DNA of 64,000 bases from an uncultured Anaerolineales bacterium (GCA_964474695.1 CAYYTK010000002.1:43898-107897), one strand, 5' to 3'; positions 9,487 through 61,272 are shown, numbered from the stretch's first letter. Translations and numbers: made by a program. Notes: generated by a model from the sequence alone, not told the origin.

Positions 9487-10568
9487 CCTCTGAAAAGACG
9501 CCCTGTCGCTTGAGCCGCCTCAACTCGCGCGGCCGCTTCGTGGGCCGTCATCTCACCCCGACGCGCTGCATCCCGCACGCGCGCAATCTCCGCCCGCATC
9601 CCCAACCGCACAATCCATGCGGCCAGGCGCCGCCGAAGGGGGCCATAAAAACGCTCATAAAGCCGGCGCCGGCTCTGCCACAAGTTTTCGAACGATAGCG
9701 CTCGAAACTGCCGCGTGCTGGCGCCGCCATGATGGATCACACGCGCTGCCGGCACACACCACAACGGCCATCCCGCCTGCTTCATGCGCCAGCACCAATC
9801 CACCTCTTCGGCGTACATGAAGTAACCTTCATCCAACAAGCCGGCCGCTTGAATCGACTCACGGCGCACCATCAACGCCGCGCCCAGGGCAAAGCCGATG
9901 GGAAAGGGTTGCCCGGCCGCATATAGATGCAGTCCGTAGCGACCGTTGAGCCGTGAATCCAGCAATCGCCGCGGTCGGGGGGGAAACAGATCAAACCAAA
10001 GCTGAAGCAGCCCCGGAAACGCGAACGCGCCGTGCTGAAAACGCCCATCGGGATACTGAAGCTGCGCGCCCGCGCCACCGACCTCAGTGTGCGCCAACAA
10101 AAAGCGCGCCATCTGCCCGATCGCGTCTCCGATCGGTTCGGCATCCGGGTTTAGCAGCAGGACCAAGTCCGGAAGGGCAGAAGATTGCGTGGTGCGTGGT
10201 GCGTGATGCGTGGTGCGTGGTGCGTCAGTCGCTGATTCGTCAACCGCCGTCTCGCCCTTTCTCCCATTCTCCCCTTCTCTCGCTACTCCGCTCTCCTCAA
10301 ATCCCAGCTCGCGCAGCACGCGATTGTTTCCGCCGGCAAAGCCCAAATTTCCGGGGCTGGCGATCAGGCGCGCCTGGGGAAACTCGGCCGCCACCAATTC
10401 GGCGCTGCCATCAGCAGAGGCGTTGTCGACCACCCATACGGTCGCGTCCAACTCAGGGCTGTGCGCCAGGCTGGCATAAGTTGCGGTCAGGCAGGCGCGC
10501 AGCAACTCGGGCACCTTGTAACTCACCACGATAATCGCAACCGCCGGCCGGTCCGTTGACATCCCCAC
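9483..10568 (-). CDS. Glycosyltransferase family 2 (rhamnosyltransferase-like) carrying an in-frame repeat insertion
   Basis: VAIIVVSYKVPELL...VVDNASADGS...LLNPDAEP...DEGYFMYAEEVDWCWR. Between the conserved blocks sits the low-complexity segment EESGVAREGENGRKGETAVDESATDAPRTTHHAPRTTQSSA, encoded by the heptamer array at 10184-10225 plus a polypurine tract. Confidence 0.85.
   Translation of the reverse strand: MGMSTDRPAVAIIVVSYKVPELLRACLTATYASLAHSPELDATVWVVDNASADGSAELVAAEFPQARLIASPGNLGFAGGNNRVLRELGFEESGVAREGENGRKGETAVDESATDAPRTTHHAPRTTQSSALPDLVLLLNPDAEPIGDAIGQMARFLLAHTEVGGAGAQLQYPDGRFQHGAFAFPGLLQLWFDLFPPRPRRLLDSRLNGRYGLHLYAAGQPFPIGFALGAALMVRRESIQAAGLLDEGYFMYAEEVDWCWRMKQAGWPLWCVPAARVIHHGGASTRQFRALSFENLWQSRRRLYERFYGPLRRRLAAWIVRLGMRAEIARVRDAARRGEMTAHEAAARVEAAQATGRLFRG
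10184..10225. repeat. Tandem heptanucleotide array (NNTGCGT x6) inside the GT2 gene
   Basis: The plus strand reads ATTGCGT GGTGCGT GGTGCGT GATGCGT GGTGCGT GGTGCGT. That is 42 nt and in frame, translated on the minus strand as APRTTHHAPRTT. The 19-mer GGTGCGTGGTGCGTCAGTC (10212-10230) recurs identically at 55075-55093. Confidence 0.9.
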
Positions 10569-10636
10569 GCCCTATGACTCCTCTCGTCTGCCCTCTGCCT
10601 TACGGAGCGCGTTTCACGTTGGGGCAGAATCAAGCG

Positions 10637-10750
10637 GAGTATCCTGAGCGGAGGGCCGGAGCCCGTAGTCGAAGGATGCGGAGCGGTCGTGTAGGCCGCG
10701 TCCTTCGACTGCGCCGGTGATACCGCCCACCGGCTCCGCTCAGGATGCTC
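10637..10750. repeat. Nested palindromic element (~114 nt) in the intergenic gap between the lipoprotein gene and GT2
   Basis: The outer stem pairs 10637-10653 with 10734-10750; its core ATCCTGAGCGGAG / CTCCGCTCAGGAT is 13 perfect bp and extends to 17 bp with one G-U pair. The inner stem is GTCGAAGGATGCG (10668-10680) / CGCGTCCTTCGAC (10697-10709). Only one copy is present in this window. Confidence 0.75.
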
Positions 10751-10777
10751 GCTTGCCCCGAAATTGAACACCCTGCC

Positions 10778-12109
10778 TTACGGCGCGCCAACCACCACAC
10801 TGATGCGTTCGATGTAGTTGTTGGGAACGTCGACGAACTCATGGATCAAGCCGCCCCACCAGAACTGTGTGCCCACCGGCGGCGCCTCGTCGAACAAAAT
10901 ACAACCTGAAACCTGGCTGCGCTTGCCCGGCAACAAGTAGTACTGGAGCTTGCCGTCGATCATCCGCTCCTCCAACTCCTCGCGTGCGCCGATGGCCCAG
11001 CGGAAGGGGAAGTCCACGCCGGTGGTGTCGAAGTTTATGCCGAAGCGCCAGCCGCCGGCCTGTTGATACCACGACGGCTCGCCTTGGGCAGCCGCAAGCG
11101 CGTTGTAATTCTCACTGAATTTGAAAGTCTGGCCCGGCCACGGCCCCGCGGTGCGGATCGGGACCGGCCCGATGTTCGCTATGGTGGCGGTGAAACACAA
11201 CGTCTGGCCCAGGGGCATTGCCGCCGTCCGGTTGGTCACATCCTGCCAATGGATCTCGCCTCCCACCACCTCGGCGCGCGGCTTGCCCCCTTCCCGGATA
11301 GTCAACGTGGAGGAGACAACAACACGATTGCCCACCTTATCCTCGGCCACACCGTAGATCACGTAGTCGCCATCAGGCGGCGGCTCGGCGTTGAGGTCGA
11401 CGCCTCCATCATAGTCGTAACCGTGATAGCCGGCCTCGCCCACCACCGCGGTTGTGCTGGTCGGATCTTCGGCAATGGGATATTTCAACATCGGTTGGCC
11501 CGGTTCGGTGGTTGCCGGCTCCAGATACACCTGCACCCGTTCGGCCTTCTTAGTCAGATAGTAGGAAATGGACACCCGGTCATGGATCGAATCCTGGTTC
11601 GGGGTGAAGTCCTGGGGCACCACCGTAAAATTGTACATCTCGGGCAGGGCTGTGTCCGCGTCGTGCAGGGTGATCTGGCCTTCGGCTTTCTGGCTGCGCC
11701 CGCCGTCATCCACAGCCTCAACCACCCAGGTGTAAACGCCATCGGGCAGCACCTGACTCTCGACCAGCAACGCACCGCCATCGGTCTGGCGCACCTGGGG
11801 ATCGTTGATGACGCCACCCCAATAGACGTTGTAACTGCCGGGGGAGCGCCGCTCTGCCTGGCGGAAATAGAAGCGCTGCCCTGCCGCGTCGATCAAGTAG
11901 ATCGACACGTTCGCCGCACGACCGATACGGTAGCGGATCAATGTAACGTCGTCCTGACCATCGGCATTGGGGCTGATCACGTCCGGCGCCATGGTTACCT
12001 CGGTCAACAGCGGCCGCAAGGAACAACCGGTCAACCCAATTGATGCGATCAGCAGGATAGCTATGACAAGCCAAAGGGAGCTCAGTCGCACAAGAGACCT
12101 CCAAGACAA
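10778..12109 (-). CDS. Lipoprotein with two FlgD-Ig-like domains
   Basis: Signal peptide with lipobox (LLIASIGLTGCS). ISPNADGQDDVTLIRYRI...YNVYWGG...DGVYTWVVEAVDDGG and a second FTPNQDSIHDRVSISYYL segment match the FlgD-Ig-like pattern. Confidence 0.7.
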   Translation of the reverse strand: MSWRSLVRLSSLWLVIAILLIASIGLTGCSLRPLLTEVTMAPDVISPNADGQDDVTLIRYRIGRAANVSIYLIDAAGQRFYFRQAERRSPGSYNVYWGGVINDPQVRQTDGGALLVESQVLPDGVYTWVVEAVDDGGRSQKAEGQITLHDADTALPEMYNFTVVPQDFTPNQDSIHDRVSISYYLTKKAERVQVYLEPATTEPGQPMLKYPIAEDPTSTTAVVGEAGYHGYDYDGGVDLNAEPPPDGDYVIYGVAEDKVGNRVVVSSTLTIREGGKPRAEVVGGEIHWQDVTNRTAAMPLGQTLCFTATIANIGPVPIRTAGPWPGQTFKFSENYNALAAAQGEPSWYQQAGGWRFGINFDTTGVDFPFRWAIGAREELEERMIDGKLQYYLLPGKRSQVSGCILFDEAPPVGTQFWWGGLIHEFVDVPNNYIERISVVVGAP

Positions 12110-12174
12110 TCAAACGAACTTAGGACACAGTCTAATCGATGGGCAATCTGACGTCAAGGCCAACGCCCGGCCTG

Positions 12175-14274
12175 CTACTCAGGGCCTATCTTCGGCGCCA
12201 ACTTCACCGGTCCCAGGCGCGCCCGCTTGCCCGCCGGGTTATCGGCGATATCGCGGATGTCCAGGCCCGAGGGCTCGGCAACATCATAGACCGTCAGAGT
12301 CACGTAGTAATCACCTGCCGGCGCACCGGAGGGCAGCGACAACGGATAGCGCCCGAAAAGGCTTTGGCCGGGCTGCCAGCGGGTTGTGGGATACTTGTAG
12401 CTCGCCGGTCGGCCATCCCATCGACCGATCTCGCTGCCCGCTGCATCTTCGAGCACTACGGATACGTAATAATCGCGTTGCAGCGTGTTCAGCACGCGCC
12501 AATAGACCGTGATCAGGCCGCCAACCGGATCGTCCCAGCCCAACAGCGCCAGCTTATGGTCGAAGTTGACGCCTGCCGCGTGCTGGGGCTGCGGCACAGT
12601 CTGGTAGACTGCGTCGGGGATCAGTTGCCAGTGACGCAGGCCCACCTGCCAAAACTGCCGATCGACGGGCAGCTCACGTCCGCCGCGATCCAAAAAGTAG
12701 GGGACAAAGCCGATCGGATCGACCACTTCATCTTGCCAGGTCACCAGCCAAGCGCCGCGCTTGCCAGCCAACGCCTGGGCCAGATCGGCTCCGACACCGA
12801 AGTCGAGCACGGCGTTCACATCCAGGATTTCCGTCTGAGGCAGGCGCGTCGCGGGTATGTCTGCCGCGTAGTAGTCCCAGGCCGGATAGGCATGGCCGGA
12901 CACCAGCAGCACGGCTTCATCCGGCCCTCGCTTCTGGTGTACAAAAGCAGCCAACTCGCGCCATTGGGCCTTGGTGAAAGCGGCATCAGTGAACCAGTTG
13001 CAGATGCTAATCCAGCCCGTCACGATCAGAAAGCCCGCGAGAACCAGAGCCAGCGCGAGGCGTGCTGCGTACTGCGTATTGCGTATTACATGGTGCGTGG
13101 TGCGTGGTGCGTGGCCCGCCAGATCCTCTGCTCCACCGCTGATTCTGCTGCCCAATGCGGCGATCCCACCAGCCAATATCAGCAGATAGGCGGGAGAGGC
13201 CAGCATCAAGTAGCGCGAATTGAACTTCGGCGTGCGAAAAGCCAAAAACAGGACACACAACACAGGCGCCAGCAGGCAGGTCAGCAGGTAGGTCAGAGAA
13301 CAAAGGCCGTTGCCTGCACCGTGCCATTTGCTTGAAAGCACAAGGGCGACCACGGCTGAAATGAACACCAGGCCAAACCAGGGAAGCAGCCGGACCGCTT
13401 CAGCCTCCAGCATCATCTCAGGCGCGGCTGCCGCATAACTGACGGCCACATGCCGCAGCGCCTCGGCCAGCTTCAGGCGGCCCTGCCAATACGACACATC
13501 CACGCGGTAGCGGTTGAGCATCGAGGGCAGCCAGGGCAAGTAGCAGAGCACAATCGCCGCAGTGGACAAGGCGAACGCGGCCAACGACGTTACCCTCGCC
13601 AGAGAAGGCGGCCGCCTGCCCCAGACCAGCCATCCAACCCAACAGATGCCATATGCCAGCAGGAGAAAGACGCCAAAATAATGAGTGTAGAGCATCGCCA
13701 CGGCCGCGAGGACAAAGGCGATCCACCATCTTGCGGACCAAAGACGAAGGCGGAACGATGAAAGCCGGCCATCATGATCTGACCTGCGCACGTCGGCGGC
13801 GGCCGTTCGCAACAGCGCATACCCTGCCAGGGCGCTGAAAAACGTCAACTGCGTGTACATGCGTGCTTCTTGGGCGTAATACACGTACAGCGGGTAGACC
13901 GCAGACAGCAACGCAGCACACGCTGCCGCATGGCGCCCGAAGTAAGACTTACCGAACAACCGTCGGGCCGCCGCCCACAGGAGCGCCACCGTCAGGGCCC
14001 CAAAAAACACCGACGGAAAGCGCAAAGCCCACTCACCCCGGCCCACCAGCCGCGTCCATCCCCCAACGACATAATAGAACAGCGGCGGCTGGATATCCTC
14101 AGCGGTCCAGCGCGTCAGCTCGCTGATCCCCTGGCCGGCGACTTGTGCAGTAACTGCCTCGTCGTACCACAGGCTCTGAGTATCCAAATGATAGACGCGC
14201 AACCCCAGGGCCAGCAGCAGCACCGCTGCCAGTCCAACACGAGAGAGCGCGACCCCTCCAAATCCTGTCTTCAT
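12175..14274 (-). CDS. Glycosyltransferase family 39 (PMT/ArnT-like, GT-C) with C-terminal beta-sandwich module and an in-frame repeat insertion
   Basis: The N-terminal loop motif YHLDTQSLWYDEAVT (DE motif) is followed by more than 10 hydrophobic segments. The extracytoplasmic C-terminus (LLGWDD...ITVYWRVL...YPTTRWQPGQ...AGDYYVTLTVYD) resembles that of the neighbouring DUF2079-like protein. One loop contains GHAPRTTHHVIRNTQYAA, encoded by the heptamers at 13064-13112. Confidence 0.8.
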   Translation of the reverse strand: MKTGFGGVALSRVGLAAVLLLALGLRVYHLDTQSLWYDEAVTAQVAGQGISELTRWTAEDIQPPLFYYVVGGWTRLVGRGEWALRFPSVFFGALTVALLWAAARRLFGKSYFGRHAAACAALLSAVYPLYVYYAQEARMYTQLTFFSALAGYALLRTAAADVRRSDHDGRLSSFRLRLWSARWWIAFVLAAVAMLYTHYFGVFLLLAYGICWVGWLVWGRRPPSLARVTSLAAFALSTAAIVLCYLPWLPSMLNRYRVDVSYWQGRLKLAEALRHVAVSYAAAAPEMMLEAEAVRLLPWFGLVFISAVVALVLSSKWHGAGNGLCSLTYLLTCLLAPVLCVLFLAFRTPKFNSRYLMLASPAYLLILAGGIAALGSRISGGAEDLAGHAPRTTHHVIRNTQYAARLALALVLAGFLIVTGWISICNWFTDAAFTKAQWRELAAFVHQKRGPDEAVLLVSGHAYPAWDYYAADIPATRLPQTEILDVNAVLDFGVGADLAQALAGKRGAWLVTWQDEVVDPIGFVPYFLDRGGRELPVDRQFWQVGLRHWQLIPDAVYQTVPQPQHAAGVNFDHKLALLGWDDPVGGLITVYWRVLNTLQRDYYVSVVLEDAAGSEIGRWDGRPASYKYPTTRWQPGQSLFGRYPLSLPSGAPAGDYYVTLTVYDVAEPSGLDIRDIADNPAGKRARLGPVKLAPKIGPE
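13064..13112. repeat. Tandem heptanucleotide array (x7) inside the GT39 gene
   Basis: The plus strand reads GCTGCGT ACTGCGT ATTGCGT ATTACAT GGTGCGT GGTGCGT GGTGCGT. Confidence 0.9.
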
Positions 14275-14301: not shown

Positions 14302-16866
14302 TCACTCCAGGGCTATGCAGCTCTCCGGCAGCGCCTTACACGCCAGATCGGGCTGCGGCGCAGCATCCGCAGCGATCGTTATCGATCCGAGGACGTACTC
14401 CTCTCCGCTCCGGTTCCCAAGGGCCAACCGTACACCGGTCTGCCAGTTGTACCAGCCCACAATCACGTCATAACGGCCGGCGGCCAGGTCGCCCGGGATC
14501 GCGACCACGTTTGCGGTCCAATGCCCGCCTGCCTCATCAGCGGTCGCCTGCCAACGCGAAACCGGTCGCGGCACAAACCACGTAGGCCCGGCATCCCCCA
14601 TCGCCACCGTACGGCCGGCGCCATCACGCAGATGCAGGAATACTGAGTAGTCCTGGCCCGCGGGGCCGGCCGTACGCCAGTGCAAAGCCACCGGCAGCGC
14701 ATGTCCGGGTGCAACCGCCGGCGGCGCAGCCCACTCGACTAATTGCACCGTCCACGCGCCATCGGTGAACTGCGCTTCGACCTCCCTGGCAGGGTCGGGC
14801 GCGCCGGTCAGCGGCGCGAGAGCGCCCTTGCGACGCACCCACGAGGGCAACCGCAGCCAACCATCAGGCGCGATCTCCACGTCCCGACCGGCCGCCCCAG
14901 ATCCGATCTCCGGCCACAAGACGCCATCCCCGGTCATCGCGTTGAGCACGGGAGCCCATGCTTTCGGCAAAAACCACGCCGTGCTCTCGGTCACCACGGT
15001 CTCGCCCGGCTGCCAACGCTCCGGCGGATACCAGAGCAGCGCCGGCATGGGTCGCAGGGCGGCATCGTCCGCCACTTCGCCTGTGGGCGTCAAAACCTGG
15101 AAGCCCAATGTCGTGCCCGGCGCCAATGGTTGGTCGGCCTGCCAATAGAACCTGAGGCTTGTCAATCGCCACTTTGGGTTGTCGACGATGTCATAGCCTA
15201 CCAGCCTGAGCTGGCTGCCGAACCTAACATCCAGCGGGTATTGTGGCGCCTGCTGAGCACGCGCGAAGCTGTAGAAAGCGTCCGGCAATTCTGTTGCGAA
15301 AGCAGCCGCCCCACGCGCCAGGAGTACGTAGCCATCCGCAGCATCCACCACACCAAACTCGCCGGACGCGAGAAGTCCCTCCAGACCGGCCTTGACATCA
15401 CTGGGGTGCATGTCCGTGGTGCCCGCTACATCCACCAAAACGTAGTCGGCGTGCGCGGTCACGGGGAACAGATAGATATACTGGCGGTGCGTAAAGTGCG
15501 GATAGAGGGCCGGCGTGGTGCTCAGCGGCGCCGCAGGCGGGATCTGCGCGCTGAAACGTGCCAGCAAACGCTCGTGTGCCGTCACCGGGGGCCATCCGTG
15601 CGTCGGACCGCGCCGGAACTCGCCACCCATCGGCGTGAAACCCTCGGCCACCTGGTAGAGGAGCGCACAGGCCAGCACCAGGCACAGCACCGATGCAGGC
15701 AGAATACGGCTCCGGGGGAGGGCCCAGCCCTGGCTGCGCCTCTTGGGCAGCAGACGGGCCGCGCCGATCGCCCCGGCTGCCACAAATAAGGGCACGAGCG
15801 GGGCGGAGTAATGGAGTTCTCCCGAATACTGCATCACGTACGAGCTGAGCAGATTGGCCAAGAGCAGAGGACTGGCAACCAACAACGGCTCAGGGCCGAG
15901 CAGGGCCAGCCCGGCGGTAGGGATCAGCAGGCCCAGGAGATAGCCGGCCCGCAACGGCTCCGCTGCGATACGCAACACCGTCACCGGCTTAGTCACCAGC
16001 GACACCAACACATCACCGAAAGAATCGCCCAAGGCGCCATAGCGCGCCGCGTAGGGCGTCTGGTCCAGCATGTAGGTTACTGCAGCAAAGTGAGGAATAA
16101 CAACGAACGTAGTTATGTAAAACCAAATCAGGCCGGCCAAGAAGATGCCGGCGCCGACTGCAACGCCGGGAGTGCGCGGAGAAACCCGATTACGTCGCGC
16201 ACCGGCATAACTCACGATCGCGGCATAAGCGCCCAGGCCCGCGCCCAGCAGCGCCGCGCCCTCTTGGACCGCCATCACCAGCAGGGACCACAGGATGAAC
16301 CAGCCCCAACGTTTTCGCTCACATGTCCACAGCGCGGCGGCGATCAGTGGCGCAGCGAATGGCATCGCATGGAACTCCGCGACGGCAGCCGCTTGCAGTT
16401 GTGGGGACAACAGGTAGGCGGCAGCGAACACCATCCCACCCCACTCTGCCATCTCACCCAGTCCCGCATCCGCCAGCTTCTTCCGGGCGAGGAGAAAAAT
16501 GGGCCACGCGCCGGCCGCAAGAGCGATCGCTTGCAGTATCAACAGCGCCCGCACGTCATCCCACAACCAGAAAACCGGTGAGATCACCGCGAAGATGGGT
16601 TCCACATGGTCGGTCAAACGCGTCAGGAGCTGATCCTTTCTGATCTCCTGGACAAAGCGACCGTGCGCCGTATTCCAGATGGCCTGGTCCATCTGTCCCA
16701 GGTCGGATTTGTGCGTCAGTTGGGCGTCGTGTTGGCGGATGCTGTAAGCCGAGAACCAAGCGGCGAACAGCACCATCAACCCAACCACGATCAAGCCCGC
16801 AGCGCGACGAGCAGGTAAATCCGATGTCCAACGGGAAGGGGCAACAGCAGTCACGATTCTTTTCAC
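14302..16866 (-). CDS. Large polytopic membrane protein, DUF2079-like, with two C-terminal beta-sandwich modules
   Basis: The N-terminus has SDLGQMDQAIWNTAHGRF (a DUF2079-type motif as I recall it) followed by many TM segments. The C-terminal ~380 aa contain two copies of the L.GY...YW......P..RWQPGE..... pattern. Confidence 0.7.
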   Translation of the reverse strand: MKRIVTAVAPSRWTSDLPARRAAGLIVVGLMVLFAAWFSAYSIRQHDAQLTHKSDLGQMDQAIWNTAHGRFVQEIRKDQLLTRLTDHVEPIFAVISPVFWLWDDVRALLILQAIALAAGAWPIFLLARKKLADAGLGEMAEWGGMVFAAAYLLSPQLQAAAVAEFHAMPFAAPLIAAALWTCERKRWGWFILWSLLVMAVQEGAALLGAGLGAYAAIVSYAGARRNRVSPRTPGVAVGAGIFLAGLIWFYITTFVVIPHFAAVTYMLDQTPYAARYGALGDSFGDVLVSLVTKPVTVLRIAAEPLRAGYLLGLLIPTAGLALLGPEPLLVASPLLLANLLSSYVMQYSGELHYSAPLVPLFVAAGAIGAARLLPKRRSQGWALPRSRILPASVLCLVLACALLYQVAEGFTPMGGEFRRGPTHGWPPVTAHERLLARFSAQIPPAAPLSTTPALYPHFTHRQYIYLFPVTAHADYVLVDVAGTTDMHPSDVKAGLEGLLASGEFGVVDAADGYVLLARGAAAFATELPDAFYSFARAQQAPQYPLDVRFGSQLRLVGYDIVDNPKWRLTSLRFYWQADQPLAPGTTLGFQVLTPTGEVADDAALRPMPALLWYPPERWQPGETVVTESTAWFLPKAWAPVLNAMTGDGVLWPEIGSGAAGRDVEIAPDGWLRLPSWVRRKGALAPLTGAPDPAREVEAQFTDGAWTVQLVEWAAPPAVAPGHALPVALHWRTAGPAGQDYSVFLHLRDGAGRTVAMGDAGPTWFVPRPVSRWQATADEAGGHWTANVVAIPGDLAAGRYDVIVGWYNWQTGVRLALGNRSGEEYVLGSITIAADAAPQPDLACKALPESCIALE

Positions 16867-40647: not shown

Positions 40648-40738
40648 TCTATCGATGCCTACAGTGCGAAGCGCAGGACCAGAAGAACTCAGCCAGGGGA
40701 CGGTTGGTTTGGGAACTCGAACGGCTGCAGGACTCACC

Positions 40739-41380
40739 ATGACACTTGCCGAACATCAGATGTCGCTAACCGCCTGCCGCCGCTGTGCGGATGCGGGCTA
40801 CTTCATCGGCTCCTCGCCAATCTCCACCCTGAACGCGGGCGCGATCTTTATGACCGTGGGCCAGGCGCCGGGCCGGCACGAGGCGGATGTAACGCACAAG
40901 CCGTTTTCAGGCCCCGCGGGCAAGCGGCTGTTCCGCTGGCTGGCGCAGGCCGGCTTCGACGAGGCCGAGTTCCGCGCCACGCAGGCGATGGTCGCGATCA
41001 CGCGCTGCTACCCCGGCCCACATCCGGCCGGCCGCGGCGATCGCGTGCCCTCGCGTGCGGAACAGGCGCTGTGTGCACCGTGGCTGGAGGCCGAGCTGGC
41101 GCTCATTCAGCCGCAGGTGATCGTTCCGATTGGCGGGCTGGCAATCGATCGATTCTTAGGCAACGCGAGAAACCTGGTTTCTGGCAGAAACCAGGTTTCT
41201 AGGACCTCCACCATGACCGGGCTGATCGGCGAGCGCTTCGAGCGCGTTGGGCGCATCGTGGTGCCGCTGCCCCACCCCTCCGGCGCCAGCCAATGGTTCA
41301 ATGTGCCAGAGAACAAAGAACGGCTTGCGCGCGCGCTGGAGATCCTGGCAAGCCTGCGCGCAGGGCTGTTAATCAAATAA
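40739..41380 (+). CDS. Uracil-DNA glycosylase superfamily protein (family 4/5-like) with an in-frame repeat insertion
   Basis: CRRC, the motif-A-like FMTVGQAPGRHE, and the C-terminal HPSGASQWFN. The start is uncertain (ATG at 40655, 40739 or 40760). It contains NARNLVSGRNQVSR, encoded by the repeat at 41168-41200. Confidence 0.8.
   Translation: MTLAEHQMSLTACRRCADAGYFIGSSPISTLNAGAIFMTVGQAPGRHEADVTHKPFSGPAGKRLFRWLAQAGFDEAEFRATQAMVAITRCYPGPHPAGRGDRVPSRAEQALCAPWLEAELALIQPQVIVPIGGLAIDRFLGNARNLVSGRNQVSRTSTMTGLIGERFERVGRIVVPLPHPSGASQWFNVPENKERLARALEILASLRAGLLIK
41168..41200. repeat. Two 15-nt near-palindromes in tandem (inverted-repeat pair) inside the UDG gene
   Basis: AGAAACCTGGTTTCT (41168-41182), GGC, then AGAAACCAGGTTTCT (41186-41200). 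The second unit is the exact reverse complement of the first. The 18-nt period is in frame (RNLVSG / RNQVSR). Confidence 0.9.
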
Positions 41381-48494: not shown

Positions 48495-49340
48495 TTATGC
48501 TCCGGGGTAGACCGCAACACCGATGGTGGCTGGCCCCACGTGTACACCCAGCGCCGGCCCCAGGTCGGCTATGAAGCCGTCAGACGCGCCGAACTGCGCG
48601 GCAAGCTCCTTCAGGATCTGCTGCGCCTCAGTTGCAGCCAACGCGTGGGTGACACCAATACGCACCTTTGGCCCCCGCGCAGGAATTTGCGCCAGCAACT
48701 GCTTTTGCGCCGTCTCCAGCGCCTTGGCCCGGCTGCGCACCCGCATCAACGGCACAACCTCGCCGTCCACGATGCCCAGCAGCGGCTTGAACTTCAGCAG
48801 CGTTCCGACGAACGCCTGCGCCTTGCCGATACGGCCGCCCTTCTCCAGGTACTCCAGGGTTTCCACGATAAACGTAATGCGAACCTCATCGCGCATCTTC
48901 ATCAATCGCGCAACGATCTCGGCCCGGGAAGCGCCGGCATCCGCCAGGGCCACCGCCTCCTGCACCATGAGACCTAACCCGATCGAGGTGCTCTTGGAAT
49001 CAACGACATCGATGGGCCGGCCTGCGAAACTATCCACGGCAATCAGCGCGGAATTGTAGGTCTGGCTGAGTTTGGCCGAGATCACGATGGCGATGATCTC
49101 ATCTCCAGCCTCAGTGATGGCCCGGAATGGCGCCTCGAACTGAGCAGGGGACGCCTGGGACGTCGTCGGCAGCTTGTCGCTCTTGGGGAGCCGCTCCCAG
49201 AACTGCTCACGGGTGATATCGACGCCATCCTGCAGCTCCTGTCGTCCGAAGATAACCGTCAGGGGCACTACGGTGACGCGAGGATGCGCCAACACAGCAG
49301 CCGGCGCTTCACAAGTCGAATCAGTCACAATACGAATCAT
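48495..49340 (-). CDS. DegV family fatty-acid-binding protein (tandem paralogue)
   Basis: MIRIVTDSTCEAP...TSQAS.... ATG at 49340 is preceded by AGGAGAGG. The track start at 49415 (TTG) adds 25 aa. Confidence 0.9.
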   Translation of the reverse strand: MIRIVTDSTCEAPAAVLAHPRVTVVPLTVIFGRQELQDGVDITREQFWERLPKSDKLPTTSQASPAQFEAPFRAITEAGDEIIAIVISAKLSQTYNSALIAVDSFAGRPIDVVDSKSTSIGLGLMVQEAVALADAGASRAEIVARLMKMRDEVRITFIVETLEYLEKGGRIGKAQAFVGTLLKFKPLLGIVDGEVVPLMRVRSRAKALETAQKQLLAQIPARGPKVRIGVTHALAATEAQQILKELAAQFGASDGFIADLGPALGVHVGPATIGVAVYPGA

Positions 49341-50422: not shown

Positions 50423-50499
50423 GCAGGGGTCAGTGGGCAGGGGTCAGTGGGCAGGGGACAGGGGACAGGGGTCAGTGGACAGGTGTCAATGATCAGGGG
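50423..50499. repeat. Tandem heptanucleotide array (NCAGNGG x11) starting immediately after a stop codon
   Basis: GCAGGGG TCAGTGG GCAGGGG TCAGTGG GCAGGGG ACAGGGG ACAGGGG TCAGTGG ACAGGTG TCAATGA TCAGGGG. Confidence 0.9.
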
Positions 50500-50592: not shown

Positions 50593-51210
50593 ATGATCGT
50601 CGGGCTGGGCAACCCTGGTCCGGAGTATGCGCGGCACCGGCACAACATCGGCTTCCAGGTAGTGGATCGCTTCGCGGATCAGCACGGCCTGACGTTCGAC
50701 AAATTCCAGAAACGGGCGCGCCTGGCTATCGGACAGGTGACGTTGCGAGAAAGCTGGAGCGGTCGCGTAGTGCTGGCCAAACCGATGACCTACATGAACC
50801 TCAGCGGCGAAGCAATCGGCGCACTGGCGGTCTATTATAAGATCCCGCCGGCCGATATCCTGGTGGTCCATGATGACCTGGACCTGCCGATCGGGCGCAT
50901 TCGCCTGCGTCCCGGAGGCAGCGCAGGCGGCCAGAAAGGGGTGGCCTCAACCATCCAACGCCTGGGCACCGAAGGGTTCCATCGCCTGCGCATCGGCATC
51001 AGCCGGCCCGGCGGGACCGGCAGCGATGCGCCGCCAGCCATGAATCCAGCCGACTACGTGCTGCAGCCCTTCACCACCGCACAGGAGAAAGAAATGATGT
51101 TCGTTCGCCTGCGCGCAGTGGAAGCGATCGAGATCTGGTTGGCGCAAGGGATGGAGGCAGCGATGAACCTTTTCAATGCAGACGAAAGACGACAGACCAA
51201 GGACGAATAA
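50593..51210 (+). CDS. pth: Peptidyl-tRNA hydrolase
   Basis: MIVGLGNPGPEYARHRHNIGF and VVHDDLDLPIGRIRLRPGGSAGG. The ATG at 50530 is an in-frame alternative that adds 21 atypical residues. The last 10 codons (ADERRQTKDE) are encoded by the repeat at 51181-51210. Confidence 0.85.
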   Translation: MIVGLGNPGPEYARHRHNIGFQVVDRFADQHGLTFDKFQKRARLAIGQVTLRESWSGRVVLAKPMTYMNLSGEAIGALAVYYKIPPADILVVHDDLDLPIGRIRLRPGGSAGGQKGVASTIQRLGTEGFHRLRIGISRPGGTGSDAPPAMNPADYVLQPFTTAQEKEMMFVRLRAVEAIEIWLAQGMEAAMNLFNADERRQTKDE

Positions 51211-51243
51211 CGTCTTCTGTCGTTCGTTGTTCGTCGTTCGTCA
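51181..51243. repeat. Inverted pair of heptamer arrays (GACGAAN x4 / complement x4) spanning the pth stop and ending 8 nt before mfd
   Basis: GACGAAA GACGACA GACCAAG GACGAAT AACGTCT TCTGTCG TTCGTTG TTCGTCG TTCGTCA. It can fold as an imperfect hairpin, 51195-51212 pairing with 51225-51242 (16 pairs, 2 mismatches by hand). Confidence 0.8.
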
Positions 51244-51250: not shown

Positions 51251-54200
51251 ATGAAACTTAACGGACTTCTCTCCTTGGGCCGGGAGCTTCCGGCCCTGCA
51301 AGATCTGATGGCCGCCCTGCGAGCAGGCCAGCCGCCGGACGCGGCCATCGAAATCTATCACGCGGCCCGACCTTACGTAGTTGCTACACTGGCGCTGTGC
51401 CTCAACCAGCCTCTCGTCATCGTTACCCCGCGCACCATGCGCGCCCGGCAATGGGTTGATGAGCTGCGCACCTGGCTCCCTGATGATGTGCCGGTTCACA
51501 ACTTCGCAGACCCCGACGCCCTGCCCTATGAGCGCATCCCCTGGGCGCCCGAGACAAGGCAGCGGCGACTGGAGGCCTTGGTCAGCCTGCTGACGTGGGA
51601 AGGCAGCAGCGAAGCAGCCAATCAGCGAATCGGCGAATCAGCGAACGACGCAGTACGCAAGCGATCTGCGGATCGCCCGCAATACGCAAGCGGTCCGCAA
51701 ATCGCCTGCAGCACGCGTCACGCCCCCATCGTCGTCGCCTCCGCGCGCGCCCTGATCCAGACAACGCTGCCCGTGCGCGAGTTGCGCGCAGCGCTGCGCC
51801 CGATCCGCCAGGGCCAGCCATTCGATCTGCAACGGACTCTCGCCGGCTGGGTGGGCCTTGGCTATGAGGCGGCGACTGTGGTGGACTTGCCCGGCCAGTT
51901 CAGTCGTCGCGGCGGCATCATTGACATCTGGCCGCCGAATCAGCGCAAACCGCTGCGCATCGAACTGTTTGGGGACGAAATCGACAGCCTGCGCCTCTTC
52001 GATCCTTCCACCCAACGCACCTTGACGCGCGTCGACCAGGTATGGATCGGACCGGCCAGCGAAGCGCTGCCGAAACTGGGAGAGCGCCTGGCGGACAAGC
52101 TGCGCGGCCTGGACTTCTCCCAGTGTCACCCGCCTGCGCGCAGCGAATATGCACAGGAAATCGAGCAGCTTACCGCGGGCACAGGGCACCGCCACCTGGA
52201 GTGGTACATCCCTTATCTATACAGCCAGCCTGGCTGCCTGACAGAGTATCTGCCGGCCCAGGGCGCCTGGCTGATCATTGAAGATGCGGCTGATCTGCTG
52301 GCCGCCTTCGCCGACCTGGCAGGGCAAGCTGAGCAGTTGTCCAAAGACCTGCGGAGCGCCGGCGATGTACCGGCCATCTTGAAGGCTCCCTACTTCACCG
52401 CTGAAGCCTTGCGCGAGCGCCTGCTATCTCGACCGATCCTCCACCTGGGCTATAGCACGCTGAACGGACTGGCCCGGCCGGAAACCGGCCAGAGCGCGAG
52501 GCAGCAACCTGTGGGCGCCCTGGGTGAGCAGTTTGCAGCCGGCCCGCGCTTCGGCGGTCAGATCCGGGCCCTCCAGGTTGAGATGGAACGCGCCTTGAGC
52601 AGCGGCGATCGCGTCATCCTCGTCAGCCGCCAGGCGCCGCGCCTGGCCGATCTGCTGGGCCGAAACGGCCACAGTGTGACCCCTTCCGACAACATCTCCG
52701 TTCCACCACCGCCCGGCCTCTCGCTGGTCCAGGGAGTGATGGAAGAGGGCTGGAAGCTACAGACGGATTTTAGATTGCCGATTTCCGATCTTGAATCGGA
52801 TCATCGATCCGAATCAGACGCTAAAGACAGCCAATCGGAAATCAAAAATCAAAAACCGACAACCCTCTGGTTTCTCACCGATGCCGAGCTCTTCGGCTGG
52901 GGCAAACCGAAGCCCCGGCGGCCGCAGCGGCCGCGCGCGCTGGCTCCTGAAGTCTTCTTCGCCGACGTACAACCGGGCGACCTGGTCGTGCACATCGAGC
53001 ATGGCATCGGACGATTTCTTGGCCTGGCCAAGATGCCCGTGGACGGTGTAGAACGGGAATACCTGCAAATCGAGTACGCTCAAGGCGATCAGCTATACGT
53101 GCCGGTGCACCAGGCCGACCGGCTGGCGCGTTACGTGGGCGCCGGAGAGACCGCACCAACGCTGCACCGGCTGGGCACCACCGAATGGGAACAGGTGAAA
53201 GCGCGGGCCAAGCGCGCGGTGGCCGAGATCGCCGACGATCTTTTGGAGCTATATGCCGCGCGCGAGGTGGTGCAGGGCCACGCGTTCAGCCCGGACGCGG
53301 CATGGCAGCACGATCTGGAATCGAGCTTCCCCTACATCGAAACCGAAGATCAGCTTGTGGCGATCGAAGCAGTGAAGCACGATATGGAACAGCTGCGGCC
53401 CATGGATCGGCTGATCTGTGGCGATGTTGGCTACGGCAAGACCGAAGTTGCGCTGCGAGCCGCGTTCAAGGCCATCATGGACGGCAAGCAGGTTGCGGTG
53501 TTGGTGCCCACCACCGTCCTGGCCCAACAACACTACACCAACTTCAGCCGCCGCCTGGCCGCCTTCCCGGTCACAGTCGCCATGCTCTCCCGCTTCCAGA
53601 CCCCCGCGCAACAGGATCGCACTATCACCGGCCTGATCAACGGCAGCATCGACCTGGTAATCGGCACCCATCGCCTGTTGAGCAACGATGTTGCACTCAA
53701 GGACCTGGGGCTGCTGATCGTGGATGAGGAACAGCGGTTCGGCGTGGCGCACAAGGAGCGCATCAAGCAGTTGCGCACCGAAGTCGACGTGCTGACGCTG
53801 ACCGCCACGCCCATCCCCCGCACCCTCCACATGAGCCTGACGGGCGTGCGCGACCTTAGCACCATCGACACGCCGCCCGAAGACCGCTTGCCGGTCAAGA
53901 CCTTTGTCGGCGACTTCGATGAAACGCTGGTTCGCCAGGCGATCCTGCGCGAGCTCGACCGCAACGGCCAGGTCTATTTTGTGCACAACCGCGTGCAGGG
54001 CATCGACCAGATGGCGGCTCGAGTGCGCAAAATCGTGCCTGAGGCGCGCATCGCGATCGCCCACGGCCAAATGCCCGAGCGCGAGCTCTCCGCGGTGATG
54101 CTTGCGTTTGCCGAGGGGGAGTACGACATCCTCGTGTGCACCAGCATCATCGAAAGCGGCCTGGACATTCCTAACACGAACACCATCATCATCAACCGCG

Positions 54201-55021: not shown

Positions 55022-55027
55022 CGAGGA

Positions 55028-55118
55028 AACGTGAGGCGTGAAACGTAATGCGTGGTGCGTCGTTCGTCCTTCGTGGTGCGTGGTGCGTCAGTCCCCGTTC
55101 GTCATTCATCCTTCGGCG
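55028..55118. repeat. Tandem heptanucleotide array (NNCGTNN x13) in the convergent gap after mfd
   Basis: AACGTGA GGCGTGA AACGTAA TGCGTGG TGCGTCG TTCGTCC TTCGTGG TGCGTGG TGCGTCA GTCCCCG TTCGTCA TTCATCC TTCGGCG. CGT holds a fixed phase in 10 of the 13 units. Confidence 0.85.
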
Positions 55119-59139: not shown

Positions 59140-59156
59140 AGATAGCATCCTCCTCT

Positions 59157-59196
59157 GTGGGAATGATGTGGGATAAAGTGGGATATGTGTGGGATA
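59157..59196. repeat. Four helically phased copies of GTGGGA(A/T)(A/T), i.e. (A/T)(A/T)TCCCAC on the coding strand, just upstream of the ridA RBS
   Basis: GTGGGAAT starts at 59157 and GTGGGATA at 59168, 59178 and 59189, giving spacings of 11, 10 and 11 nt. Confidence 0.8.
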
Positions 59197-59253
59197 CCCC
59201 CTTGCGCACGGCTGCCCCGTGATAGGGACTGCCTTGCGCTGCTGATCGCTCAC

Positions 59254-59724: not shown

Positions 59725-59730
59725 CGTGCA

Positions 59731-60195: not shown

Positions 60196-60313
60196 AGATC
60201 ATTCTCCCCGTCGTTGCCACGGGCGCCCACTCGTGTGGCGCGTCCCGGGTCGCAGACAATTCATTTTATCACGAATCTGGCCCCTTCGGCAATCGGCGGG
60301 CGGTCAGAATCGC

Positions 60314-60342
60314 TTGGGGAAATCGACTATCCCGACTATACT
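60314..60342 (+). promoter_or_regulatory. Putative promoter placing the transcription start at or next to the hypA ATG (leaderless)
   Basis: TTGGGG (60314-60319), 17 nt, then TATACT (60337-60342). Only 6 nt separate the -10 element from ATG 60349, and there is no Shine-Dalgarno sequence. Confidence 0.4.
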
Positions 60343-60348
60343 GGGCAC

Positions 60349-60711: not shown

Positions 60712-60749
60712 GATGCAGCAGCAGTGTCGCGCCCGCCATTGTTGCGGGT

Positions 60750-60778
60750 TTGTGACGTTCGCGATTATGTGTTAGACT
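60750..60778 (+). promoter_or_regulatory. Putative promoter with extended -10 (TGTGTTAGACT) for the first response regulator
   Basis: TTGTGA (60750-60755), 17 nt including TG at 60770-60771, then TAGACT (60773-60778). It shares the 15-mer found at 49581-49595. Confidence 0.45.
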
Positions 60779-60838
60779 AAGATATGAACCCGATGAAGGG
60801 TCCGATTATCTCGCGTTGCTGCAAGGAGATCCCTGTTC

Positions 60839-61219
60839 ATGCCATCTGCCAAAATCCTCGTTGTGGACGATGACCCCGATTTCGTCGAAATCATGCGCAC
60901 TATCCTAGAAGCCAATGACTATGAGGTGATCACCGCAGCCAATGGCAACCAGGCTCTGACCCAGGTAAAAGCTGAGCACCCCGACCTCATGCTGTTGGAT
61001 ATCATGATGTCTACCGTGCTCGATGGGTTGGATGTGAGCGAGCAACTCGCCCAGGACCCCGATGCCAAGTACATGCCGGTGATCATGGTTTCGTCAATCG
61101 CCGAAACTCCATATGCACATGTGTTCCCGATGGAAGAGCAGCCACATATGGACGCCTGGTTGTCCAAACCGGTAGATCCGAAAGTGCTGCTGGGCAAGGT
61201 AGCCGAACTGCTAAGCTGA
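60839..61219 (+). CDS. Single-domain response regulator (receiver only), paralogue 1
   Basis: KILVVDDDPDF, LMLLDIMM (phospho-acceptor Asp), MVSS and LSKP. AAGGAG RBS. Confidence 0.9.
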   Translation: MPSAKILVVDDDPDFVEIMRTILEANDYEVITAANGNQALTQVKAEHPDLMLLDIMMSTVLDGLDVSEQLAQDPDAKYMPVIMVSSIAETPYAHVFPMEEQPHMDAWLSKPVDPKVLLGKVAELLS

Positions 61220-61224
61220 AAGCC

Positions 61225-61272
61225 GCAGATCGCTCGATCCGCAGATCGCTCGATCCGCAGATCGCTCGATCC
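61225..61272. repeat. Three perfect tandem 16-nt units between two response-regulator genes
   Basis: GCAGATCGCTCGATCC x3. Each unit contains the short palindrome GATCG-CT-CGATC. The array starts 6 nt after the upstream stop and ends 23 nt before the GTG start at 61296. Confidence 0.9.

What the first reader, a model, noticed from the sequence alone, without database searches (positions are those of the whole stretch)
10184..61272. Window-wide family of micro-repeats (7-nt CGT/ACG-cored arrays and small palindromes) that invade coding sequences in frame
Seen in sequence: related short repeats occur at 10 or more places.
- Intragenic: 10184-10225 (GT2), 13064-13112 (GT39), 41168-41200 (UDG), 51181-51210 (last 10 codons of pth), and 51596-51727 and 52760-52864 (mfd).
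- Intergenic: 8143-8179, 50423-50499, 51211-51243, 55028-55118 and 61225-61272.

Three loci share GGTGCGT units, and two share an identical 19-mer (10212-10230 = 55075-55093). That argues for copies of a common element rather than independent slippage. All intragenic copies keep the reading frame and fall between conserved protein blocks.

Established knowledge: heptanucleotide STRR arrays are known in heterocystous cyanobacteria, and Rickettsia palindromic elements insert in frame into ORFs. These are analogies, not identities.

Inference: a mobile or recombinogenic micro-repeat system is tolerated in surface loops of housekeeping enzymes, and may be a source of phase or length variation.
Basis: partly seen in the sequence, partly recalled or inferred. 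Interest (0 to 1): 0.65.

Follow-up and report, generated by a model that had tools for sequence, protein, structure and literature searches.

The report
Heptamer repeat arrays inside bacterial genes
An uncultured Anaerolineae (Chloroflexota) genome carries short 7- and 8-base tandem repeats and small hairpins in gene spacers and, read in frame, in floppy loops of ordinary enzymes; this is a lineage-specific form of a known kind of bacterial microsatellite, with some regularities that have no explanation yet.

Summary
The repeats are real at all eleven coordinates. Period-7 tandem runs number 7, against 0.2 expected by chance. They recur in independent metagenome assemblies, so they are not artefacts.

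They are not one family. I see three kinds:
- heptamer/octamer arrays (ACGCAnn, GACGAAN, CAGGGGW, GGGGAGCR, GCGAATCR);
- one 16-mer array;
- small perfect hairpins, including a dispersed 33-nt double palindrome.

Intergenic arrays differ between ~99.5%-identical strains by exactly 7, 14 or 16 nt.

All the coding arrays lie in variable loops: GT2, GT39, two Mfd sites, UDG and the Pth tail. The GT2 loop has AlphaFold pLDDT below 50.

Most arrays occupy the same sites in relatives down to 55-65% protein identity. They are long-term residents, not recent invaders. One inverted-heptamer hairpin at the pth-mfd junction is a gain in this lineage. The 33-nt palindrome sits in different genes in different genomes.

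Best reading: slippage-prone LSSR/STRR-like microsatellites plus a REP/RPE-like palindrome, filtered by selection, with occasional copying to new sites. I found no transposon hallmarks.

Two things remain unexplained: a strict G-rich-then-C-rich polarity of adjacent arrays (39:1), and (GGTGCGT)n arrays in many phyla.

The parts
10184..10225 (-). Heptamer array in the GT2 linker. The coding strand reads (ACGCACC/ACGCATC/ACGCAAT)x6 and encodes APRTTHHAPRTTQS.
   Evidence: It lies in the hypervariable linker between LRELGF and DLVLLLNPDAEP. AlphaFold pLDDT is below 50 for aa 94-129.
10226..10298 (-). G-rich part of the GT2 composite: decayed GGGAGARN octamers followed by GACGAATCAGCGACTG, which forms the junction to the heptamer array.
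   Evidence: Orthologues L142-L144 carry (GGGGAGCR)n at the same place, up to about 18 units.
13060..13112 (-). Heptamer array in a GT39 (PMT_2) loop between transmembrane helices. It reads (ACGCACC)3 then ACGCAAT, ACGCAGT, ACGCAGC, and encodes HAPRTTHHVIRNTQYAA.
   Evidence: The unit order is the same in L142 and L143.
13122..13152 (-). G-rich / AATCAGCG-containing remnant lying upstream (in coding sense) of the GT39 heptamer array.
13736..13794 (-). Decayed inverted heptamer hairpin, (GACGnnn)...(nTTCGTC), in a second GT39 loop.
   Evidence: It is best preserved in L143, where it reads DEGRRTKDE...SFVVRLSS.
16180..16194 (-). Decayed half copy of the AGAAACCNGGTTTCT palindrome in a loop of DUF2079.
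   Evidence: The L142 orthologue carries the full 33-nt double palindrome there and is 5 aa longer.
41168..41200 (+). 33-nt double palindrome, AGAAACCTGGTTTCT-GGC-AGAAACCAGGTTTCT, in frame in UDG. It encodes RNLVSGRNQVS.
   Evidence: (z = -6.5). It is a 13-aa excess over the syntenic L151 orthologue.
50423..50499 (+). Intergenic heptamer array (CAGGGGW/CAGTGGG)x11, starting directly after a stop codon and lying upstream of pth.
   Evidence: Near-identical strains show 7- and 14-nt deletions. L150 has about 4 units at the same site, and L151 has related heptamers there.
51181..51243 (+). Hairpin made of inverted heptamer arrays, (GACGAAN)4 / (NTTCGTC)4. The 5' arm encodes the last 9 codons of Pth and the stop codon lies at the loop.
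   Evidence: z = -3.3. It is absent at the pth-mfd junction of L150 and L151.
51597..51723 (+). Mfd insert 1, a composite of a GGGAAGGCAGCAG remnant, (CAGCGAAT)x4-5 octamers, and then ACGCAGT/ACGCAAG-type units with GCGATC-rich inverted pieces.
52760..52864 (+). Mfd insert 2, an A+T-richer decayed repeat region that includes (AAATCAA)2.4.
   Evidence: It has 6 substitutions per 105 nt against sister strains. Orthologues there carry GNWKLET- and PASSNQQ-type 7-aa repeats.
55028..55118 (+). Degenerate intergenic heptamer array of about 13 units, (K)CGTnnn including (GGTGCGT)x4 and TTCGTCC, lying just after the mfd stop.
   Evidence: L150 has (GGTGCGT/ACTGCGT)x9 at the same site.
61223..61274 (+). 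16-nt tandem array (CCGCAGATCGCTCGAT)x3.2 between two response-regulator genes.
   Evidence: Other strains carry 3, 2 or 1 copies. Its 11-mer occurs reverse-complemented in Mfd insert 1.
8143..8179 (.). Perfect hairpin with 16-nt arms, (GGGCGAT GGGCCAT / reverse complement), between hpf and the LMW phosphatase gene.
   Evidence: z = -8.5. Its position is conserved in L142 with one compensatory pair, and L144 has a different hairpin there. It has no T-run.

Best explanation
**What it is.** The window comes from an uncultured Anaerolineae (Chloroflexota) genome. Its non-essential sequence space holds short-unit tandem arrays, mainly 7 nt but also 8 and 16 nt, together with small perfect hairpins.

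**The arrays.**
- They are long simple-sequence repeats of the 5-11-nt class, like cyanobacterial STRR and the Chloroflexus heptamer satellites.
- They reside for long periods at permissive sites: directly after stop codons and in disordered or variable protein loops.
- They change mainly in place, by replication slippage (gain or loss of whole units) and by unit substitution.
- Now and then a copy appears at a new site, most likely by template switching or ectopic copying from an existing array or hairpin.

**What selection then allows.** Inside genes only certain arrays survive:
- those that keep the frame;
- those that are stop-free in all three frames;
- in this lineage, those that read as hydrophilic peptide. 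ACGCACC gives THHAPRT, whereas GGTGCGT gives GAWCVVR.

**The palindrome.** The 33-nt AGAAACCNGGTTTCT double palindrome is a separate, REP/RPE-like dispersed hairpin that can also be read in frame.

**Shown.** The arrays and their excess; unit-sized polymorphism; persistence at orthologous sites; location in loops; one gain at a new site.

**Inferred.** Slippage and template switching as the mechanisms, and the selective filter.
For: **Excess of period 7.**
- 7 runs against 0.2 expected.
- period 7 dominates in Chloroflexota, Gemmatimonadota and PVC loci.

**Unit-sized length differences.** Strains about 99.5% identical differ by -7 and -14 nt at 50423-50499, and carry 3, 2 or 1 copies of the 16-mer. 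Differences per base are ten times denser in the arrays than outside, 4.7% against 0.46%.

**Same sites in relatives.**
- GT2 linker.
- GT39 loop.
- Mfd inserts.
- Spacer upstream of pth and the site downstream of mfd.
- Distant Mfd orthologues have only about 5 aa at insert 1, and M. smegmatis Mfd has 17 aa where the window has 50.

**DNA-level origin.** The 7-aa and 8-aa peptide repeats equal three heptamers or three octamers read in all frames: (APRTTHH)x7 in P0019, PISNLQSx4 in P0242, and GNWKLET repeats.

**Loops.** GT2 aa 94-129 have pLDDT below 50, while the rest of the model scores 80-98.

**Sense-strand peptides.** These are the more hydrophilic reading for every motif.

**New-site events.**
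- The pth-mfd hairpin is absent in L150 and L151.
- The palindrome is present in the DUF2079 gene of L142 and the UDG gene of the window.

**Literature.**
- Heptanucleotides are the commonest LSSR(5-11) class, and polymerase slippage was proposed for them (Mrazek 2007 as summarised in PMC4679880).
- A dispersed (GATAGRA)n family is known in Chloroflexus (PMC6749651).
Against: - No slippage rate was measured.
- The coding arrays show no length polymorphism among the 1-5 near-identical strains available.
- Pure in-place slippage does not explain several features:
  - the same motifs, junctions (GACTG|ACGCACC) and order (G-rich octamers, then AATCAGCG, then ACGCAnn) recur in three unrelated genes;
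  - (GGTGCGT)n recurs in many phyla;
  - adjacent arrays obey a G-rich-then-C-rich polarity of 39:1.
- The hydrophilic-sense rule is only a tendency across phyla: 26 against 17 under a crude ORF heuristic.
Confidence: 0.6

Rival explanations
1. The arrays and hairpins are copies of a small non-autonomous mobile element (MITE, REP/REPIN or RPE-like). An enzyme encoded elsewhere in the genome would insert it, sometimes in frame, into genes and spacers.
For: - Two loci share an identical 19-mer that includes 5 non-repeat bases.
- Three unrelated genes carry the same composite order.
- The pth-mfd hairpin was gained in this lineage, and the same hairpin type sits in GT39.
- The 33-nt palindrome occurs in UDG, in DUF2079 (L142) and in intergenic spacers of Caldilinea and Thermoflexales MAGs, against about 0.005 expected by chance.
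- Contigs L012 and L013 end inside arrays.
Against: - Most arrays sit at orthologous sites across deep divergence.
- No terminal inverted repeats or target duplications are visible at the pth-mfd gain.
- The 19-mer junction is absent from the 120 (GGTGCGT)3 loci and gives only 5 unrelated hits in metagenome contigs.
- No transposase is seen in the gene content of the window.
- The composite is absent among the top 150 hits of the peptide search.
Confidence: 0.2
2. The intergenic arrays and hairpins are functional cis-elements. They could be binding sites for an RNA- or DNA-binding protein, or mRNA-stability or insulating stem-loops, and would be kept by selection. The coding copies would be by-products.
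For: - The arrays start within a few bases of stop codons in co-directional operons (ORFs).
- A hairpin is kept downstream of hpf with a compensatory change.
- The palindrome in Caldilinea lies between the substrate-binding and permease genes of an ABC operon.
- The strict G-rich-then-C-rich polarity suggests a constraint at the transcript level.
- There is a precedent in the TAACTGA repeats (PMC4679880).
Against: - There is no Rfam match.
- None is a canonical terminator.
- The single arrays at 55028-55118, 50423-50499 and 61223-61274 do not clearly fold better than shuffles (z = +1.3, -2.5 and -2.0, with 185, 3 and 10 of 200 shuffles folding at least as well).
- Copy number varies freely between strains.
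- Gene contexts of the hairpin pairs are mixed.
Confidence: 0.12
3. The coding arrays are contingency (phase-variation) switches. Gain or loss of a 7-nt unit would shift the frame and switch GT2 or GT39, and hence surface glycosylation, on and off.
For: - The unit length is not a multiple of 3, and the arrays lie inside two glycosyltransferase genes.
- Intergenic arrays do change by single units.
- Several orthologous ORFs in relatives are split near arrays.
Against: - No frame-shifted allele appears in the available strains.
- The same arrays occur in the housekeeping genes mfd and pth.
- The arrays are short (3-6 perfect units) and interrupted.
- GT39 unit order is unchanged across three species.
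- The split ORFs come from long-read assemblies in which other, repeat-free genes are also split (hpf, the LMW phosphatase gene and DUF2079 in L144; mfd split at about residue 700, away from the arrays, in L150), so sequencing error explains them equally well.
Confidence: 0.06
4. The repeats are assembly or sequencing artefacts.
For: Two short-read contigs end inside arrays.
Against: Identical arrays are assembled independently from at least six samples. Homologous arrays are present in relatives.
Confidence: 0.01

Closest known systems
Long simple sequence repeats with 5-11-nt units (LSSR5-11; Mrazek, Guo & Shah 2007, as summarised in PMC4679880)
   Same: - Tandem heptanucleotide units are the dominant class.
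- They occur in free-living bacteria with large genomes.
- They are longer than chance allows and variable in copy number.
- Slippage was proposed as the mechanism.
   Different: - Many arrays here lie inside genes although 7 is not a multiple of 3.
- They are read in all three frames as 7-aa repeats.
- They are kept at orthologous loop positions across a whole clade.
- They occur as ordered composites (G-rich octamers, then C-rich heptamers).
Cyanobacterial STRR heptamers (STRR1 CCCCAGT and others; from my own knowledge, Mazel et al. 1990)
   Same: - Dispersed tandem heptamers built from a few motif families.
- Found in a filamentous bacterium.
- Function unknown.
   Different: - The taxon and the unit sequences differ. 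(GGGGACA)n at 50452-50471 is one base away from the complement of STRR1, which may be coincidence.
- STRR arrays are described mainly from intergenic DNA.
(GATAGRA)n heptamer satellite family of Chloroflexus aurantiacus and the 6-8-nt GC-rich microsatellites of Burkholderia (PMC6749651)
   Same: - Same phylum (Chloroflexus).
- One heptamer family is scattered over many loci.
- The authors also suspected some form of transposition.
   Different: - Different class (Anaerolineae) and different motifs.
- In-frame coding arrays, orthologous persistence and polarity were not described there.
TAACTGA heptamer direct repeats of Beggiatoaceae, cyanobacteria and Bacteroidetes (PMC4679880)
   Same: - One exact heptamer is repeated at many loci and is shared by distant phyla, with no known transfer mechanism.
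- A few copies lie in ORFs.
   Different: - TAACTGA repeats sit just upstream of start codons and were proposed as translational regulators.
- The arrays here follow stop codons or lie in coding loops.
- The motif differs.
Rickettsia palindromic elements (RPE; from my own knowledge, Ogata et al. 2000) and REP/REPIN hairpins
   Same: The small palindromic element is dispersed in intergenic DNA and is also found in frame in unrelated protein genes, where it adds a loop peptide. This applies to the 33-nt AGAAACCNGGTTTCT double palindrome and to the heptamer hairpins.
   Different: - It is 33-65 nt long, against 100-150 nt for RPE.
- There is no sequence relation to RPE or REP.
- Copy number per genome is unknown.
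- No RAYT-type gene was seen.
Phase-variable SSR contingency loci (for example Haemophilus tetranucleotides; PMC2651432, PMC11868660)
   Same: - Tandem units that are not a multiple of 3 lie inside glycosyltransferase genes.
- Slippage changes the copy number.
   Different: - No frame-shifting alleles were seen.
- The arrays also lie in housekeeping genes.
- The organism is environmental, not host-adapted.

Membership tests
LSSR(5-11) / heptanucleotide microsatellites | Head-to-tail tandem iteration of a 5-11-nt unit | tested here: met
   TRF and my own periodicity scan both find it.
LSSR(5-11) / heptanucleotide microsatellites | Arrays longer and more frequent than expected from composition | tested here: met
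   7 period-7 runs against 0.2 expected in Markov-3 shuffles.
LSSR(5-11) / heptanucleotide microsatellites | Copy-number change by whole units between closely related genomes | tested here: met
   -7, -14 and -16/-32 nt in strains 96-99.5% identical. This was seen only for intergenic arrays.
Cyanobacterial STRR | Unit sequence is STRR1/2/3 (CCCCAGT, TTGGTCA, CAACAGT) | tested here: not met
   The units are ACGCAnn, GACGAAN and CAGGGGW. The nearest is one mismatch from the complement of STRR1.
Cyanobacterial STRR | Host is a (heterocystous) cyanobacterium | tested here: not met
   The best homologues are named Chloroflexi / Anaerolineae MAGs.
Rickettsia palindromic elements | Palindromic element of about 100-150 nt belonging to a sequence family | tested here: not met
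   The palindrome is 33 nt and the heptamer hairpin about 65 nt. The tandem arrays are not palindromic.
Rickettsia palindromic elements | In-frame presence in unrelated ORFs, with presence/absence between orthologues | tested here: met
   - UDG is +13 aa against L151.
- DUF2079 is +5 aa in L142.
- Pth is +9 aa against L150 and L151.
REP/REPIN | Many copies per genome, mostly intergenic | not testable with these tools
   Only 64 kb of the genome is held. The element was seen in 4 independent contexts across about 1.2 Mb of mixed loci.
REP/REPIN | Associated RAYT (Y1 transposase) gene | not tested
   No such domain appears among the Pfam labels of the called genes that were seen. The window was not scanned exhaustively and the rest of the genome is not available.
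Phase-variable contingency locus | Strain-to-strain unit changes that switch the reading frame | tested here: inconclusive
   No such allele appears among 1-5 strains per locus. Split ORFs in relatives are confounded by long-read errors.
Intrinsic terminator | G+C-rich stem followed by a T-run | tested here: not met
   None of the arrays or hairpins is among the terminator-like sites.
Known RNA families (Rfam 15) | A match at the gathering score | tested here: not met
   0 matches in the window.

The most novel reading that the evidence does not exclude
The arrays may not be passive microsatellites. They could be the footprint of a still unknown, sequence-aware process that seeds and orients short repeats. 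It might be a template-switching or recombination system, or a transcript-level constraint such as avoidance of exposed C-rich, Rho-loading RNA.

Three observations point that way:
- The same ordered composite (G-rich octamers, then AATCAGCG, then ACGCAnn heptamers) occurs in three unrelated genes.
- (GGTGCGT)n/(ACGCACC)n arrays and hairpins occur in Chloroflexota, Gemmatimonadota, PVC bacteria and Actinomycetota.
- Adjacent arrays of opposite skew are almost always arranged G-rich 5' and C-rich 3' on both strands (39:1).
Probability: 0.12. Interest if true: 0.8.

Novelty: new variant of a known kind. Interest (0 to 1): 0.5.

Why it matters
- **Protein evolution.** A bacterial lineage can keep non-triplet microsatellites inside housekeeping enzymes for long evolutionary times. 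It does so by confining them to disordered loops. This gives a ready source of loop-length variation, and it creates a recurring annotation and assembly hazard in Chloroflexota MAGs: split ORFs, contig breaks and odd low-complexity peptides.
- **Open questions made testable.** The polarity rule and the cross-phylum recurrence of one heptamer bear on why heptamers dominate bacterial long SSRs and whether they have a function. Both can be tested by genome-wide counting and with simple orientation reporters.

Tried and rejected
- **Known RNA families.** An Rfam scan of the window found none.
- **Canonical terminators.** No array or hairpin qualifies.
- **Assembly artefact.** Rejected by replicate assemblies.
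- **A dispersed element edge at GACTG|ACGCACC.**
  - It is absent from the 120 (GGTGCGT)3 loci.
  - It gives only 5 unrelated hits in metagenome contigs.
  - The longer junction AATCAGCGACTGACGCACC is unique in the window.
- **Peptide census with the P0019 linker.**
  - It returned 337 representative proteins carrying APRTTHH- or GAGEQGSR-type repeats.
  - None of the top 150 has both parts, and several look eukaryotic.
  - The composite is therefore not general.
- **UDG palindrome.** I first judged it 'not an insertion' because it aligns gap-free with UDGX. I revised this after comparing it with a syntenic orthologue.
- **Sense-strand rule across phyla.** It is only a weak bias, 26:17, under a crude ORF heuristic.
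- **Contig ends as evidence of multi-copy repeats.** Two ends fall in arrays, but four others coincide at 46030-46038, where there is no repeat. This is weak evidence.
- **The 16-nt 'repeat' at 49309-49339.** It is the conserved DegV N-terminus, not a member of the family.
- **Organism name.** The listing of cluster members gave none.

Full report
**1. Check of the observation**

- Tandem Repeats Finder recovers them.
- The 19-mer GGTGCGTGGTGCGTCAGTC is identical at 10212-10230 and 55075-55093.
- A periodicity scan finds 7 period-7 runs against 0.2 expected in Markov-3 shuffles. Periods 3-24 otherwise sit at background, except 14 (2x7) and 16.
- Motif sharing between loci exceeds chance:
  - GACTGACGCA occurs at 10221 and 55084 (expected 0.1).
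  - CCGCAGATCGC occurs three times at 61223 onwards, and reverse-complemented at 51661 inside mfd (expected 0.2).
  - AATCAGCG flanks the GT2, GT39 and Mfd arrays.
- The same arrays appear in Logan and ENA assemblies from several samples at 96-100% identity, so they are not artefacts.

**2. Host genes and organism**

- Pfam confirms the following:
  - GT2, 9483-10568, minus strand;
  - a PMT_2/GT39-like protein, 12175-14274, minus strand;
  - UDG, 40655-41380;
  - Pth, ending at 51210;
  - Mfd, 51251-55021, 1256 aa.
- The nearest homologues are unnamed or labelled Chloroflexi / Anaerolineae MAGs.

**3. Population variation**

I compared the window with contigs about 99.5% identical.

- The array at 50423-50499 lacks 7 nt in L007 and L009 and 14 nt in L008.
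- The 16-mer array has three copies in the window and two in L001, L003, L004 and L007. The 96-97%-identical L002, L005 and L006 carry one.
- No other indel longer than 1 nt occurs in about 150 kb of aligned sequence.
- Differences per base are ten times denser inside the arrays than outside, 4.7% against 0.46%. This includes six substitutions in the 105 nt of Mfd insert 2.
- The coding arrays in GT2, GT39, Mfd insert 1 and the Pth tail showed no change in the one to five strains available.

**4. Insertion test against orthologues**

*GT2*
- The array lies between the conserved LRELGF and DLVLLLNPDAEP blocks.
- Among 60 orthologues (60-99% identity) this linker ranges from about 0 to about 100 aa.
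- It is filled with 7-aa and 8-aa repeats: APRTTHH, APRSTPHA, AIRNPQS, IPNPQSP and GAGEQGSR. P0019 carries (APRTTHH)x7.
- At DNA level these are tandem heptamers and octamers read in all three frames. ACGCACC x3 gives T-H-H-A-P-R-T.
- AlphaFold gives mean pLDDT 80 and pTM 0.80. Residues 94-129, the array-encoded linker, are below 50 and have no secondary structure.

*GT39*
- The array lies in a loop between hydrophobic segments that is variable in the same way.
- The unit order (ACGCACC)3-ACGCAAT-ACGCAGT-ACGCAGC is identical in the window, L142 and L143.

*Mfd*
- Insert 1 lies between LEALVSLLT and PIVVASARAL. It is about 5 aa long in Caldilineaceae-type orthologues and 10-80 aa in the close clade. 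Examples are PISNLQSx4, ASRITHHA and GSRGAGEQGSGG...APRTTQAA.
- M. smegmatis Mfd has 17 aa where the window has 50.
- Insert 2 lies between GVMEEGWKL and LWFLTDAELFGWGKPKPR. In relatives it holds GNWKLET, PASSNQQ and similar 7-aa repeats.

*UDG*
- It aligns gap-free with UDGX.
- It is nevertheless 13 aa longer than the syntenic orthologue in L151, exactly at the palindrome: AIDRFL-21 aa-GERFE against AIDRFL-8 aa-GERFE.

*Pth*
- It extends 10 aa beyond the Pfam domain.
- L150 and L151 lack that tail.

**5. Residents or invaders?**

Most arrays are residents.

- Besides the coding sites, the spacer upstream of pth holds about 4 degenerate CAGGnGT units in L150. In L151 it holds related heptamers arranged as a hairpin.
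- The site just after the mfd stop holds (GGTGCGT/ACTGCGT)x9 in L150.

Gains at new sites do exist.

- The hairpin of about 65 nt made of (GACGAAN)4 and (NTTCGTC)4 at the pth-mfd junction is absent in both L150 and L151.
- The same hairpin type sits, decayed, in a second GT39 loop of the window and of L142. It is well preserved in L143, where it reads DEGRRTKDE...SFVVRLSS. The Pth tail of the window reads DERRQTKDE.
- I saw no target duplication or terminal repeats at the gain.

**6. Composite order**

- On the coding strand, GT2, GT39 and Mfd insert 1 all read in the same order: G-rich octamers (GGGGAGCR or remnants), then AATCAGCG/GCGAATCR, then ACGCAnn heptamers.
- The orthologues L142-L144 and L150 keep this order, but a different sub-array is expanded in each.
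- This argues for a common seed sequence, or for copying between loci, rather than three independent births.
- The evidence is limited to three loci. The composite is not seen among the top 150 hits of a peptide search with the P0019 linker.

**7. The small palindromes are different things**

- *8143-8179.* This is a very stable hairpin (z = -8.5). Its position downstream of hpf is conserved in L142, with one compensatory pair. L144 has a different hairpin there. I read it as an ordinary stem-loop.
- *41168-41200.* This is a 33-nt double palindrome, AGAAACCNGGTTTCT twice with 18-nt spacing. The same structure occurs in three other places:
  - inside the DUF2079 gene of L142, where it reads RNQVSTRNLVS and where the window orthologue keeps only a decayed half copy and is 5 aa shorter;
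  - between an ABC substrate-binding gene and its permease gene in a Caldilinea MAG;
  - in an intergenic region of a Thermoflexales MAG.
- About 0.005 such matches are expected by chance in the sequence held, so this is a small dispersed REP/RPE-like element.

**8. Wider distribution**

The hosts include Chloroflexota, Gemmatimonadota, Verrucomicrobiota/Planctomycetota and Actinomycetota.
- Within these loci period 7 outnumbers all other short periods, for example 50 against 1-8 in the Chloroflexota loci.
- Literature:
  - Heptanucleotides are the commonest long SSR class with 5-11-nt units, and polymerase slippage was proposed for them (Mrazek 2007, summarised in PMC4679880).
  - Chloroflexus aurantiacus has 22 satellites derived from one heptamer, and Burkholderia has 6-8-nt GC-rich microsatellites (PMC6749651).
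  - TAACTGA heptamers are shared by distant phyla without a known mechanism (PMC4679880).
  - A search for the four terms 'heptamer', 'tandem repeats', 'Anaerolineae' and 'genome' together returned no paper.

**9. An unexpected regularity**

- In 25 of the 120 loci an inverted partner array is present. The arrangement is always 5'-(GGTGCGT)n-spacer-(ACGCACC)n-3' and never the reverse.
- Other heptamer families give 9:0 with one tie.
- I then took all pairs of period-7/8 arrays of opposite GC skew lying within 80 nt. The G-rich array is 5' in 22 of 23 complementary pairs and in 17 of 17 non-complementary pairs.
- The coding composites and the window hairpins obey the same rule.
- The property is strand-symmetric. 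The gene contexts are mixed: co-directional, convergent and divergent.
- I have no tested explanation. One possibility is avoidance of exposed C-rich, Rho-loading RNA, because an upstream G-rich arm can sequester it as it is transcribed.

**10. Conclusion**

  - The repeats are related between loci.
  - They are tolerated in loops.
  - They vary in length.
  - A few have reached new sites.
- Most, however, are old residents evolving in place, and nothing seen marks a transposon.
- I file them as a lineage-specific variant of heptanucleotide LSSR/STRR-type microsatellites, together with a small REP/RPE-like palindrome.
- Two features remain unexplained and deserve a genome-scale test: the conserved composite order and the G-then-C polarity.

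Noticed in passing
window 10184-10298, 51181-51243; loci L022-L151 (e.g. L035 2141-2212, L068 7072-7118, L094 5117-5186, L150 13762-13894): Polarity rule. When two period-7/8 arrays of opposite GC skew lie within 80 nt, the G-rich one is 5' and the C-rich one 3' on both strands. The count is 39 to 1. Gene contexts are mixed.
   Followed up: partly
L022-L141 (genome-contig scan): (GGTGCGT)3 is present in at least 120 stretches from many phyla: Chloroflexota, Gemmatimonadota, PVC and Actinomycetota including Streptomyces. Some MAGs labelled Klebsiella, Enterobacteriaceae or Bifidobacterium also carry it, which looks like mis-binning or mislabelling.
   Followed up: partly
window 59157-59196; L151 about 9660-9700: Another repeat family, (GTGGGATAnn)n with a period of about 10-11. 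It occurs between two minus-strand genes in the window and just downstream of mfd in the outgroup L151.
   Followed up: no
P0241, P0244-P0257; L144 genes; L150 10001-13758: In relatives many Mfd ORFs are split or end near insert 2. L144 has split GT39, DUF2079, HPF and LMWPc genes. This could be long-read frameshift error or real frameshifts at arrays, and I did not resolve it.
   Followed up: no
window 46030-46038: Four Logan contigs from different samples (L007, L008, L017, L019) end at the same point inside an ORF where there is no visible repeat. This suggests a strain-variable junction or a graph branch.
   Followed up: no
P0362, P0384, P0412: Long APRTTHH repeats also occur in proteins that look eukaryotic, such as an LRR protein and large low-complexity proteins. 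So (ACGCACC)n arrays also arise outside bacteria.
   Followed up: no
window 55024-55025: Most sister-strain contigs carry one extra G just after the mfd stop codon.
   Followed up: no
window 51655-51700 and 61223-61274: Mfd insert 1 and the 16-mer array share an 11-mer in opposite orientation. Both are rich in GATC/GCGATC-containing inverted pieces, which might reflect a methylation or restriction-related motif.
   Followed up: no
L150 14186-17075: In the close relative the region downstream of mfd carries a NACHT-domain gene and an HsdM_N fragment that are absent from the window. The heptamer array therefore marks a break in synteny.
   Followed up: no
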